DNA of 64,000 nucleotides from Escherichia coli (GTDB lineage Bacteria; Pseudomonadota; Gammaproteobacteria; Enterobacterales; Enterobacteriaceae): NCBI RefSeq assembly GCF_003018115.1, contig NZ_CP027457.1; one strand, written 5' to 3'. Positions 61,433-62,919 of this stretch are shown one piece after another. Below the pieces are notes generated by a model, which was not told the DNA's origin, ran no database searches, and worked only from the letters and a program-made list of their open reading frames with translations. The first letter of the stretch is position 1; each line of letters opens with the position of its first letter. Position numbers and translations under genes: made by a program.

Positions 61433-62010
61433 ACACGGCAGCGGAGGCCATCCGTGCCCTGTCGCAGCTGGTGCCGGGATTCCGCTGTCAGATGAACGAA
61501 GGCTGGTACCAGATACGTATTGCCGGTGAGGATACCGCGCCGGAGGCGGTGTATGCCCGTCTTCATGAACCGCTGAGCGGGAGGGCCGTGATTCATATTG
61601 TACCGAGGCTGGCAGGGGCCGGGGGAAATGGTGTTTTTCAGGTGGTGCTGGGGGCTGCAGCCATCGTGGGCTCTTTCTTCACCGCCGGTGCAACGATGGC
61701 GTTGTGGGGCGCAGCCCTGAGTGCCGGAGGGCTGACTGCCACCACGATGCTGTTCTCACTGGGTGCCAGCATGATACTGGGTGGTGTGGCACAGATGCTG
61801 GCCCCGAAGGCAAAGACGCCGGAATACAAAAGTACGGATAACGGTAAACAGAACACGTATTTTTCGTCACTGGACAACATGATTGCTCAGGGGAATCCGA
61901 TGCCGGTGCCTTACGGTGAAATGCTGGTTGGTTCACGACGGATATCCCAGGACATCAGCACCCGTGATGAGGGCGGTGACGGGAAAGTGGTGGTTATCGG
62001 GCGGGGATGA
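61330..62010 (+). CDS. tail assembly protein I (lambda gpI-like)
   Basis: 226 aa overlapping K; ubiquitin-like N-terminus and Gly/Ala-rich hydrophobic C-terminus. Confidence 0.8.
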   Translation: MATTNAFCLASPPLVRICLHGDLQRFGRRISLYVNTAAEAIRALSQLVPGFRCQMNEGWYQIRIAGEDTAPEAVYARLHEPLSGRAVIHIVPRLAGAGGNGVFQVVLGAAAIVGSFFTAGATMALWGAALSAGGLTATTMLFSLGASMILGGVAQMLAPKAKTPEYKSTDNGKQNTYFSSLDNMIAQGNPMPVPYGEMLVGSRRISQDISTRDEGGDGKVVVIGRG

Positions 62011-62900
62011 AAAAAAATCCCGCAGTGTTCGGCGCCTGCGGGAAGAGATACGAAGATTAACTTTAAGGAATTTTTCATTATTCTGGCAGATGAACTGTAA
62101 CGCAGCGTGATTATGAGCGCTACAGTCAGTGTGCGGAAATGTGAATAAACTCAGAATTTTTATTCACCGGAAGAGGATTGCCGGATATCGGTGGCAGAGG
62201 ACAGAAGGCATCATGCCGGGTTCAGGGGATAAAAAAATCCCGCAGAACTCCGTGCTGCGGGAAGAGAACGATGTTGACTAACCTGTTGGCGTTTTATTTT
62301 TATTGACCCGCAGAAACTGTAACCTGCCGGAATGCACTCTGCCACGGAGAATGACGGAAAATGTGAAGAAAATCAGAGTTTTTATTTATCCCGTGCATTC
62401 GTCTCTGGCGACAGAGTGGCGTCAGTAATGTCCGTGATACTGAGGGGGGGAGTAAAGAATCTCCCGTAATACACCTGGATATTGACGGGAGAAACGAATA
62501 GTCACCTTAAGGAGTAGTTTTGATTATTGCCTGTAATCAGCGGGCGAATTGTAACGTATGGTGATTATGAGTGCCACAGGTAATTTGCAGAAATGTGAAT
62601 AAATTCAGAATTTTTATTCACAGGAAGGGGCTGCGGGATATCGGTGGCAGAGGACAGAAAATATCAGGCCGGGTTTAAGGGATAAAAAAATCCCGCAGAG
62701 TCAGCGGAGCTGCGGGAGAGAACGATGAAGATTAACGTTATGGAGTTATTTTTCAGGCATCAAAAAAGTAACGCAGCGTCATTATTGCGGCTACAGGCAA
62801 TTTGCAGAAATGTGAAGAATTTCAGAAATTTTATTCCGTCATGACACAGGCACCCTCCGGGGTGCCTGTTGTTTTTGGGCATAAACAGATTCAGACATCA
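62006..62900. repeat. I-J intergenic repeat region (three ~230-450-bp units with hairpins and palindromes)
   Basis: Recurring aaaaaatcccgcag...ctgcgggaagaga hairpins (62011, 62232, 62688) and palindrome GTGAATAAA-N9-TTTATTCAC (62141-62167, 62595-62621, degenerate copies). Confidence 0.65.
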
Positions 62901-62919
62901 GACAGGAGAGGGGGACAGA

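What the first reader, a model, noticed from the sequence alone, without database searches (positions are those of the whole stretch)
62006..62919. Structured repeat region between tail genes I and J
Lambda has I and J nearly adjacent, but here ~900 bp of non-coding DNA holds three related units. Each starts with an aaaaaatcccgcag...ctgcggg hairpin and contains the 27-bp perfect palindrome GTGAATAAA-ttcagaatt-TTTATTCAC (two perfect copies and two degenerate ones), which looks like a dimeric protein-binding site or RNA hairpin. It may regulate J expression or be a recombination hotspot for tail-fibre exchange.
Basis: seen in the sequence. Interest (0 to 1): 0.6.

Follow-up and report, generated by a model that had tools for sequence, protein, structure and literature searches.

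The report
Tandem prophage small-RNA gene array
The 900-bp "non-coding" gap between tail genes I and J holds four different copies, head to tail on the opposite strand, of a known prophage small regulatory RNA gene (PasB / EcOnc22 family). The RNA type is already known; finding it stacked four in a row is new but only moderately surprising.

Summary
The repeats are real, but there are four units of about 220 bp (62010-62838), not three.

**What each unit is.** Read on the minus strand, each unit is a small-RNA gene:
- a -10 box (CATAAT or AATAAT; degenerate in unit 2);
- a roughly 90-105 nt unstructured body;

**Family assignment.**
- The single-unit version of this spacer in EPEC E2348/69 is the published Hfq-dependent sRNA PasB. 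Its Northern probe sequence lies on the unit terminator.
- The version in EHEC Sakai Sp15/Sp14/Sp11 corresponds to EcOnc22/23/24 (about 85 nt, destabilised without Hfq).
- Unit 4 is 98% identical to the Sakai copy.
- Units 1-3 are distinct subtypes. Each is closer to free-standing spacers in other prophages than to its neighbours in the array.

**The palindrome.** It is a derived, symmetric form of a near-invariant motif, AAATGTGAAGA-nnn-TCAGAA-n-TTTTATTC. The motif resembles a CRP site and sits just upstream of each sRNA promoter. It is not a conserved hairpin.

**Prevalence.** Arrays occur in about 1.3% of complete E. coli genomes. They are unannotated there and absent from the PasB survey.

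**Verdict.** This is a known RNA family in a new tandem multi-paralogue arrangement. CRP control is inferred, not shown.

The parts
61330..62010 (+). Tail assembly gene I. The A of its TGA stop is the first base of the A-run that encodes the U-tail of unit 1.
   Evidence: ORF list; RefSeq annotation of a 99.7% identical locus.
62010..62103 (-). Unit 1 sRNA gene (about 94 nt). Terminator stem 62019-62025 / 62036-62042 followed by U8. Body contains AAUUCCUUAAAGUUAAUCUUCGU.
   Evidence: Alignment to the PasB locus. 82% identity to PasB over aligned columns. Fold is an unstructured body plus an 8-bp terminator. Closest relative is a single-unit spacer, 87%.
62110..62115 (-). Unit 1 -10 box, CATAAT. 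It is aligned with the TATAAT of the E2348/69 PasB promoter.
62137..62167 (.). Unit 1 upstream element. CRP-like 22-mer AAATGTGAATAAACTCAGAATT (62137-62158) overlapping the inverted repeat with perfect 9-bp arms (62141-62167).
   Evidence: No variable column among 9 distinct arrays.
62231..62324 (-). Unit 2 sRNA gene (about 94 nt). Terminator stem 62239-62245 / 62255-62261 followed by U7. The seed region is diverged (GUUAGUCAACAUCGUUCUCUU). The aligned -10 (62331-62336, TGCATT) is degenerate.
   Evidence: The nearest single-unit relatives (77%) carry TATCAT at the equivalent place.
62359..62389 (.). Unit 2 upstream element. CRP-like 22-mer AAATGTGAAGAAAATCAGAGTT; the palindrome is degenerate (6 of 9 arm positions pair).
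62453..62557 (-). Unit 3 sRNA gene (about 105 nt), a second subtype. Terminator CTCCCGT...ACGGGAG (62461-62491) with a weakened tail AUUCUUUA. Related arrays have AUUUUUU at this place. Body contains ACUCCUUAAGGUGACUAUUCG.
   Evidence: Closest relatives are single-unit spacers with the same terminator type, 79%.
62564..62569 (-). Unit 3 -10 box, CATAAT. A second -10-like TACAAT lies at 62548-62553.
62591..62622 (.). Unit 3 upstream element. CRP-like 22-mer AAATGTGAATAAATTCAGAATT (62591-62612) and inverted repeat 62595-62621, with arms extendable to 10 bp (62594-62622).
62684..62774 (-). Unit 4 sRNA gene (about 91 nt), the orthologue of EcOnc22 of EHEC Sakai Sp15 (89/91 identical) and a homologue of PasB. 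Terminator stem 62692-62698 / 62710-62716 followed by U7.
   Evidence: Fold z-score -3.1. The Hfq-CRAC peak and the about 85-nt Northern band of EcOnc22 map here after coordinate calibration.
62781..62786 (-). Unit 4 -10 box, AATAAT.
62808..62838 (.). Unit 4 upstream element, ancestral form. CRP-like 22-mer AAATGTGAAGAATTTCAGAAAT followed by TTTATTCCG. Only 5 of 9 palindrome arm positions pair.
62846..62879 (+). Pre-J hairpin plus T-run (ACAGGCACCC-TCCG-GGGTGCCTGT TGTTTTTGGG). It is not part of the repeat. It is conserved with a compensatory variant (GGCATCC/GGATGCC), and lambda has an analogous hairpin in its 60-bp I-J gap.
62920..64000 (+). 5' part of tail tip gene J (GTG start). It runs off the end of the window.

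Best explanation
The I-J gap carries a 'moron' cassette: four tandem, non-identical genes for small Hfq-type regulatory RNAs of the PasB / EcOnc22 family. All four are transcribed leftward, antisense to the tail operon.

Each unit, read on the minus strand, has four parts:
1. A conserved AT-rich upstream element, AAATGTGAAGA-nnn-TCAGAA-n-TTTTATTC on the plus strand. The best match is a cAMP-CRP site, TGTGA-N6-TCAGA.
2. A promoter with a good -10 and a weak -35.
3. A roughly 90-105 nt, largely unstructured RNA carrying conserved CUCCUU and AAUCUUC stretches.
4. A GC-rich hairpin plus U-tail that terminates it. For unit 1 the tail overlaps the stop codon of I.

What is shown:
- The anatomy of the units.
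- Homology and shared position with two experimentally detected sRNAs.
- Conservation of the upstream cores and terminator stems.
- The existence of 1-, 2-, 3- and 4-unit versions.

What is inferred:
- All four units are expressed in the lysogen.
- They act in trans through Hfq on host or prophage mRNAs, with unit-specific seeds.
- The upstream element makes expression depend on an activator, probably CRP (about 40% for CRP specifically).
- The arrays were assembled by unequal or homologous recombination between different single-unit spacers at the conserved core and terminator.

The perfect palindrome is a lineage-specific symmetric variant of the upstream element, not a feature of its own.
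For: PasB link.
- PasB is 83 nt, on the minus strand, at NC_011601.1 1466343-1466261 between E2348C_1436 (I) and E2348C_1437 (J). It is Northern-verified and Hfq-stabilised.
- Its probe AATCCCGCAGTGATCGCGGAGCT is the plus-strand terminator sequence of the unit.
- The 240-bp E2348/69 and VT1-Sakai spacers align end to end with unit 4 and, in the sRNA part, with units 1-3.

EcOnc22/23/24 link.
- EcOnc22 gives an about 85-nt Northern band and is destabilised in a hfq deletion mutant.
- All three fall in the I-J spacers of Sp15, Sp14 and Sp11, on the strand antisense to the tail genes.
- After calibrating the paper's older coordinates with AgvB (offset +128 to +146), the Hfq peak lies on the PasB-like RNA.
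- Unit 4 is 89/91 identical to that RNA.

Gene anatomy.
- The E2348/69 minus-strand promoter is TTCACA-16-TATAAT, and terminators are called on the minus strand.
- All four predicted RNAs fold as an open body plus a terminator.
- Terminator variants keep pairing: CCCACAG/CTGTGGG and CTCCCGT/ACGGGAG.

Conservation.
- In 38 unique single-unit spacers chosen through J, not through the motif, the core is the most invariant block.
- Among 9 distinct 4-unit arrays there are 0 variable columns in 124 core positions against 57 in the other 798. The variable sites inside the sRNA genes sit mostly in terminator loops.
- Each unit is closer to a free-standing spacer elsewhere (87, 77, 79 and 100%) than to its array neighbours (45-77%).

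CRP-like match.
- Allowing up to 3 mismatches to AAATGTGA-N6-TCACATTT gives 9 sites in the window against 0.41 expected. Four of them are these cores.
- PasB is higher in static overnight LB than in exponential DMEM, whereas Spot 42 shows the opposite behaviour. From established knowledge, Spot 42 is repressed by cAMP-CRP.
Against: - No expression data exist for units 1-3 or for any strain that carries the array.
- The aligned -10 of unit 2 is degenerate, and the U-tract of unit 3 is weakened in this window. One or two units may therefore be silent, or made only by read-through (unit 3 into unit 2).
- CRP geometry is not canonical. The site centre is about -44.5 from the TSS predicted from the TATAAT-type -10, where class II promoters have -41.5. 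It is -59.5 from the published PasB 5' end, where class I promoters have -61.5.
- The right half-site is TCAGA, not TCACA.
- The invariant TTTTATTC block and the conserved positions 9-11 are not explained by CRP.
- Rfam 15 has no model that hits the region, so family assignment rests on alignment and position.
- The EcOnc22 mapping depends on a coordinate offset calibrated about 1 Mb away.
Confidence: 0.8

Rival explanations
1. Only the J-proximal unit (unit 4, equivalent to EcOnc22) is a working gene. Units 1-3 are decaying by-products of unequal recombination with no function of their own.
For: - Unit 2 has a degenerate -10, and unit 3 has a weakened U-tail in this window.
- Most prophages manage with one unit: 50 of 72 J-anchored loci.
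- Arrays are rare: 72 of 5426 complete genomes.
Against: - Each of units 1-3 has free-standing relatives that are the only unit in other prophages.
- Cores, stems and bodies of all four units are conserved among 9 distinct arrays, while the inter-unit tails vary at 11-14% of columns.
- The terminators of units 1 and 2 are as strong as that of unit 4.
Confidence: 0.15
2. The RNAs act mainly in cis. Being fully complementary to the I-J intercistronic part of the late transcript, they, possibly together with the pre-J hairpin, tune J synthesis or late mRNA processing after induction.
For: - The antisense arrangement and the position directly upstream of J are shown.
- A conserved plus-strand terminator-like hairpin precedes J, in lambda as well.
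Against: - PasB was recovered in RIL-seq chimeras with many trans-encoded RNAs in a lysogen in which the neighbouring tail genes are almost silent (base means 5-15 for I and J against 480-1080 for pasB).
- Lambda and the sodC-carrying variants do without the sRNA promoter.
- The two roles are not mutually exclusive.
Confidence: 0.2
3. The palindrome is an operator for a phage or host dimeric regulator other than CRP. Alternatively it is simply an UP-element-like AT tract that boosts promoters with a weak -35.
For: - The conserved block is longer than a CRP site (positions 1-11, 15-20 and 22-29) and is AT-rich.
- The spacing to either candidate start site is off the canonical CRP positions.
Against: - TGTGA is invariant, and TCA is invariant six bases later, with variable bases between positions 12 and 14. 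This is the pattern of a CRP/FNR-type dimer site.
- No alternative consensus known to me fits better. ARG box, FNR and IHF were compared by eye only.
Confidence: 0.35
4. The units are type I toxin-antitoxin-like modules: a small plus-strand peptide gene (MKINV.ELF...) controlled by the antisense RNA.
For: In unit 4 and in E2348/69 an ATG preceded by GGGAGAG opens a 22-41 codon frame on the plus strand, antisense to the sRNA.
Against: - The start codon is ACG in 12 of 36 unique spacers.
- Frame length ranges from 6 to 41 codons.
- The peptides are not hydrophobic.
- Unit 1 has ACG at the aligned start position and unit 3 has no ATG there either.
Confidence: 0.03

Closest known systems
PasB sRNA of EPEC E2348/69 (Pearl Mizrahi et al. 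2021, PMC8550237; Zhu, Shabalina and Storz 2026, bioRxiv 10.64898/2026.05.13.724894)
   Same: Same slot (I-J spacer of a lambdoid prophage) and same antisense strand. Same terminator (CCCGCAG...CTGCGGG plus U7), same conserved upstream core, and alignable body (72-89% over aligned columns).
   Different: - PasB is described as one gene per prophage, with the closest pair of copies 28 kb apart.
- Here four diverged paralogues sit 220 bp apart.
- The longest exact match to PasB is 17 nt or less, so the survey's BLAST (word size 28) would not have found them.
- That survey does not discuss any promoter or regulator.
EcOnc22 / EcOnc23 / EcOnc24 of EHEC O157:H7 Sakai (Tree et al. 2014, PMC4104026, Table S2)
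   Same: Unit 4 is 98% identical to the Sp15 copy. EcOnc22 is Hfq-crosslinked, gives an about 85-nt band, and is destabilised without Hfq.
   Different: - In Sakai there is a single unit in each of three prophages.
- The targets are unknown.
- Table S6 of the 2021 paper, which lists EHEC homologues for PasA and PasD, lists none for PasB. The equivalence with PasB therefore appears not to have been made.
Tandem sRNA paralogues such as OmrA/OmrB (E. coli), PrrF1/PrrF2 (Pseudomonas) and LhrC1-4 (Listeria)
   Same: Adjacent, independently terminated Hfq-type sRNA genes that share promoter-upstream elements and have partly diverged seeds.
   Different: Those are unrelated sequences, are chromosomal, and mostly come in pairs. 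This comparison is from general knowledge and the discussion, not from a test done here.
Prophage morons in the tail region (for example sodC)
   Same: An autonomous, oppositely oriented transcription unit inserted between late genes. In 8 of 72 related loci a sodC gene occupies the same gap and abuts the PasB remnant.
   Different: The cargo here is RNA genes, and they are multiplied.
cAMP-CRP-dependent promoters (class I, lac; class II, galP1)
   Same: A 22-bp site with a perfect AAATGTGA left half and TCAGA as the right half, lying upstream of a promoter with a weak -35.
   Different: The centre is at about -44.5 or -59.5 instead of -41.5 or -61.5. Binding has not been tested.

Membership tests
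PasB / EcOnc22 sRNA family | Encoded in the I-J intergenic spacer of a lambdoid prophage, antisense to the tail genes | tested here: met
PasB / EcOnc22 sRNA family | Sequence homology to the published RNAs | tested here: met
   Unit 4 is 89/91 identical to the Sakai Sp15 RNA. Identity to PasB over aligned columns is 82% (unit 1), 73% (unit 2), 72% (unit 3) and 89% (unit 4). Unit 3 is the weakest and has a different terminator type.
PasB / EcOnc22 sRNA family | Rho-independent terminator with a U-tract of at least 4 (criterion of Pearl Mizrahi Table S6) | tested here: met
   U7-U8 in units 1, 2 and 4. Unit 3 has AUUCUUUA in this window and AUUUUUU in related arrays.
PasB / EcOnc22 sRNA family | Own promoter upstream of the RNA | tested here: inconclusive
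   The -10 is CATAAT (units 1, 3) or AATAAT (unit 4), aligned with the TATAAT of E2348/69. The -35 is weak, and unit 2 is degenerate. The consensus scan did not call these promoters in the window.
PasB / EcOnc22 sRNA family | Expressed as an 80-90 nt RNA that binds Hfq and is stabilised by it | not testable with these tools
   Shown in the literature only for the E2348/69 and Sakai copies.
Rfam-curated RNA family | A match to any of the 4227 covariance models | tested here: not met
   No relevant hit at E of 1 or less in 61000-64000 or in the Sakai spacers. The family is not in Rfam 15.
CRP-binding site | TGTGA-N6-TCACA with flanking A/T | tested here: met
   2-3 mismatches in the 16 specified positions of the 22-bp consensus, in all four units. 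There are 9 such sites in the window against 0.41 expected. TGTGA and TCA are invariant in 38 unique spacers.
CRP-binding site | Centred at -41.5 (class II) or -61.5 and further helical turns upstream (class I) from the start site | tested here: not met
   About -44.5 from the TSS predicted from the -10, and -59.5 from the published PasB 5' end. The true start site is unknown.
CRP-binding site | Binding of cAMP-CRP and cAMP-dependent expression | not testable with these tools
   Circumstantial only: PasB is high in static LB and low in DMEM, the opposite of Spot 42.
Type I toxin-antitoxin | A conserved small ORF for a hydrophobic peptide opposite the antisense RNA | tested here: not met

The most novel reading that the evidence does not exclude
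The I-J gap of lambdoid prophages is a cassette site. Recombination at a shared upstream element and terminator stacks different PasB/EcOnc22-type sRNAs there: 1 to 4 units, or a sodC gene. In array-bearing STEC all units answer to one signal, probably cAMP-CRP. The lysogen thereby gains a carbon-state-dependent, multi-seed sRNA regulon. The same prophage does this twice, because it also carries four tandem STnc100/PasD-type sRNA genes, each preceded by its own CRP-like 22-mer.
Probability: 0.3. Interest if true: 0.6.

Novelty: new variant of a known kind. Interest (0 to 1): 0.42.

Why it matters
- **Scope of the family.** Prophage sRNAs rewire host regulation in EHEC and EPEC. The current survey of the Pas family concludes that copies arise by repeated phage acquisition rather than by tandem duplication, and it counts PasB as essentially single-copy.
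- **What this locus adds.** The family is broader than BLAST with the E2348/69 sequence reveals. PasB and EcOnc22-24 appear to be the same family. Some STEC prophages carry four different members side by side.
- **A testable regulatory lead.** The invariant upstream motif gives a first hypothesis for how these RNAs are regulated (CRP).
- **Annotation.** For genome annotation, this removes about 900 bp of "empty" DNA in about 1.3% of complete E. coli genomes.

Tried and rejected
1. Rfam (E-value mode) on 61000-64000 gave only two chance-level hits. Tandem Repeats Finder missed the array because the units are too diverged.
2. Palindrome as a conserved RNA or DNA hairpin: rejected. Arm pairing is 9/9 in only 13 of 108 unique contexts, and the other variants change without compensation.
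3. Inter-unit 'tails' as duplicated copies of the 3' end of gene I: an initial MAFFT alignment looked suggestive, but local alignment scores are no better than shuffles (p 0.18-0.59).
4. Simple in-situ duplication of a 454-bp double unit: only the promoter/core/tail halves of units 1 and 3 are close (84-90%). Their RNA bodies belong to different subtypes, so the history is mosaic.
5. RNAalifold on 21 representative RNAs returned no consensus structure, because the two terminator types misalign. Terminator evidence therefore rests on single-sequence folds and on paired variants.
6. Small plus-strand ORF (type I TA-like): rejected.
7. Plus-strand promoter in the core driving a short RNA to the pre-J terminator: no acceptable -10/-35 was found by eye or by scan.
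8. Taxonomic range by scanning one genome per species: only two tiny contigs of 460-546 bp, in Asaia and Parendozoicomonas assemblies, most likely contamination. This is consistent with the reported Escherichia/Shigella restriction.
9. ARG-box, FNR and IHF consensus sequences were compared with the core from memory. None fits as well as CRP. This was not a formal test.
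Full report
**1. What is in the sequence**

Gene I (tail assembly) ends with TGA at 62008-62010. J starts at GTG 62920. No ORF of any length or conservation fills the gap. RefSeq annotates nothing there in a 99.7% identical genome.

The repeat finder reports direct-repeat families with 217-232 bp spacing, including a 47-nt block present four times. The array therefore has four units, not three:
- unit 1, 62010-62230
- unit 2, 62231-62452
- unit 3, 62453-62683
- unit 4, 62684-62838

An 81-bp non-repeated segment follows, up to J.

Units 1, 2 and 4 begin (on the plus strand) with A7-8-T-CCCGCAG-loop-CTGCGGG. Unit 3 begins with AAAGAAT-CTCCCGT-loop-ACGGGAG.

The inverted repeat GTGAATAAA-N9-TTTATTCAC has perfect arms at 62141-62167 and 62595-62621, and degenerate arms in units 2 and 4. 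Its 9-nt centre is not palindromic. Such an inverted repeat is not in itself remarkable: about 24 distinct sites with perfect arms of 9 bp or more in the window (51 nested arm/spacer combinations counted) against 5.4 such combinations per shuffle. The two perfect copies are related by descent, because the promoter-side halves of units 1 and 3 are 84-90% identical.

**2. The units are genes on the other strand**

Read on the minus strand, the "hairpin that starts each unit" becomes CCCGCAG-loop-CTGCGGG-AUUUUUUU, an intrinsic terminator.

The single-unit version of this spacer exists in many prophages. In EPEC E2348/69 it is exactly where Pearl Mizrahi et al. (2021) placed the sRNA PasB:
- minus strand, 1466343 to 1466261, 83 nt;
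- between E2348C_1436 (I) and E2348C_1437 (J);
- Northern-verified, and its stability depends on Hfq.

Their probe AATCCCGCAGTGATCGCGGAGCT is the plus-strand terminator sequence. Upstream of PasB on the minus strand the scan finds TTCACA-16-TATAAT. The aligned positions in the window read CATAAT (units 1 and 3), AATAAT (unit 4) and a degenerate TGCATT (unit 2).

From these -10 boxes the predicted RNAs are 94, 94, 105 and 91 nt. All fold as an open body followed by a terminator stem-loop.

**3. A second experimental anchor**

Table S2 of Tree et al. (2014) lists EcOnc22 (Sp15, about 85 nt by Northern, destabilised in a hfq deletion mutant) and its homologues EcOnc23 (Sp14) and EcOnc24 (Sp11).

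In NC_002695.2 all three coordinates fall inside the 240-bp I-J spacers of those prophages, on the strand antisense to the tail genes.

The paper used an older coordinate version. AgvB, which Rfam places at 1941920-1941981 in the current record, is listed at 1941783-1941835. The offset is therefore +128 to +146. Applying it moves the EcOnc22 Hfq peak to about 2902842-2902920, which is the PasB-like RNA predicted at 2902836-2902926.

Unit 4 is 89/91 identical to that RNA. PasB and EcOnc22-24 therefore appear to be one family. Table S6 of the 2021 paper gives EHEC homologues for PasA and PasD but none for PasB. A 2021 review lists EcOnc22 with unknown targets.

**4. Family survey**

A scan of IMG/VR for the 28-nt core found at least 120 loci. 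Because that set is chosen by the motif, I also fetched 80 loci through the N-terminus of J. Of 72 measurable I-J gaps:

| Content of the gap | Loci |
|---|---|
| one unit | 50 |
| two units | 7 |
| three units | 1 |
| four units | 6 |
| PasB remnant plus minus-strand sodC gene (851-bp gap) | 8 |

The sodC identification is confirmed against NCBIfam. Lambda has only 60 bp, with a hairpin plus T-run before J. The gap is thus a moron insertion site.

In complete E. coli genomes:
- the whole 1-kb query is covered at 80% or more in 78 of 5426 genomes;
- the array-specific junction occurs in 72 genomes, mostly STEC from cattle, food and patients, and is never annotated.

The 2026 survey of the Pas sRNAs reports a minimum distance of 28 kb between PasB copies and argues for repeated acquisition rather than tandem duplication. 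Its BLAST used a word size of 28, while the longest exact match between PasB and any of the four units is 17 nt. This explains why the arrays were not seen.

**5. Are all four units maintained?**

Each unit's RNA gene is closer to a free-standing spacer in another prophage than to its neighbours in the array:

| Unit | Best free-standing relative | Neighbours in the array |
|---|---|---|
| 1 | 87% | 50-74% |
| 2 | 77% | 53-74% |
| 3 | 79% | 45-48% |
| 4 | 100% | 53-77% |

The array is therefore a collection of four subtypes, not a recent amplification.

Among nine distinct 4-unit arrays, 57 of 922 columns vary:
- none of them lies in the four 31-nt cores (0 of 124);
- the variable sites inside the RNA genes lie mainly in terminator loops;
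- the tails after units 1 and 2 vary at 11-14% of columns.

Caveats: the -10 of unit 2 is degenerate. The U-tract of unit 3 carries an A-to-G change in this window relative to related arrays. Unit 3 may therefore read through into unit 2.

**6. The "palindrome"**

In the J-anchored, motif-blind set of 38 unique single spacers, the most conserved block of the whole gap is AAATGTGAAGA-nnn-TCAGAA-n-TTTTATTC. Positions 4-8 (TGTGA) and 15-17 (TCA) are invariant.

The perfect 9/9 arm pairing occurs in only 13 of 108 unique contexts. The remaining contexts have 4-8 of 9, with no compensatory pattern. Sequence is conserved, not pairing. This is a DNA element, not an RNA hairpin.

It lies immediately upstream of the weak -35 region of each sRNA promoter. 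It matches the CRP consensus AAATGTGA-N6-TCACATTT with 2-3 mismatches. Nine such sites occur in the window against 0.41 expected, and all nine precede tandem sRNA units.

Circumstantial support:
- PasB is higher in static overnight LB than in exponential DMEM.
- Spot 42 is five-fold higher in DMEM. That cAMP-CRP represses Spot 42, and that DMEM contains glucose, are general knowledge, not tested here.

Against CRP:
- The centre is about -44.5 from the start site predicted from the -10, or -59.5 from the published 5' end. Neither is canonical.
- The conserved block is longer than a CRP site.

I therefore rate "activator or UP-type promoter element" as likely, and "CRP" specifically at about 40%.

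**7. Other readings**

- A plus-strand peptide gene (MKINV.ELF) is excluded. The start is ACG in 12 of 36 spacers and the frame length runs from 6 to 41 codons.
- A cis-antisense effect on the late I-J transcript is possible and not exclusive. It cannot be tested here.
- The pre-J hairpin (62846-62879) is a separate, ancestral element. It is conserved with a compensatory variant, and lambda has a counterpart at the same place.
- Recombination: sRNA-side and J-side haplotypes of the spacer occur in all combinations. This is an inference.

**8. Verdict**

It is a tandem array of four distinct PasB/EcOnc22-family sRNA genes with a shared, probably CRP-type, upstream element.

The RNA family is known. 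Three things appear to be new:
- the tandem multi-subtype array;
- the PasB = EcOnc22 link;
- the conserved promoter-upstream motif.

Interest is moderate.

Noticed in passing
window 36917-37129 and 38889-39868 (+): Five STnc100 (RF02076; the PasD-related family) sRNA genes. Four of them form a tandem array with a period of about 260-270 bp, just upstream of a sialate-esterase-like ORF (40096-42060). The Pas survey reports PasD copies at least 74 kb apart, so this second tandem sRNA array in the same prophage also seems undescribed.
   Followed up: partly
window 36874, 38846, 39106, 39376, 39636 (+): Each STnc100 copy is preceded, 42-43 nt before the start of the Rfam match, by a CRP-consensus-like 22-mer (AAATGTTAAATTCCTCACAATT; 2-3 mismatches). 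Together with the four PasB-unit cores these are all nine such sites in the window, against 0.41 expected.
   Followed up: no
L159 1650-2500 (also L161, L163, L164, L167, L171, L193, L203): In 8 of 72 related prophages the I-J gap is 851 bp. The PasB terminator and body are kept, but the promoter and core are replaced by a minus-strand Cu,Zn superoxide dismutase gene (sodC; NF007628, 218 bits). The PasB remnant then lies in the sodC 3' UTR and could be a 3'-UTR-derived sRNA.
   Followed up: partly
L206 537-627; L207; L208 (E. coli O157:H7 Sakai Sp15, Sp14, Sp11): EcOnc22/23/24 of Tree et al. 2014 map to the I-J spacers and, after coordinate calibration, onto the PasB-like RNA. The PasB papers held in the library do not mention this equivalence.
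   Followed up: yes
L210 145-205 (phage lambda 15445-15504): The 60-bp I-J gap of lambda contains a plus-strand hairpin plus T-run (AACCGCC-TGCG-GGCGGTT TTGTCATTT) directly before the J ribosome-binding site. It is analogous to the conserved pre-J hairpin at window 62846-62879. Its function is unknown to me.
   Followed up: no
window 62453-62460: The U-tract of the unit 3 terminator reads AUUCUUUA here and in L001, but AUUUUUU in other 4-unit arrays (for example L024). One substitution may make this terminator leaky, giving a unit 3-unit 2 read-through transcript.
   Followed up: no
window 28495-28679 and 29388-29562 (+): Rfam gathering-threshold hits for isrK, C4 antisense RNA and sok, plus two tRNAs at 35942-36100. 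The prophage is rich in small RNA genes overall.
   Followed up: no
L204, L205: The only exact core matches among species-representative genomes are contigs of 546 bp and 460 bp in Asaia platycodi and Parendozoicomonas haliclonae assemblies. They look like E. coli prophage contamination.
   Followed up: no
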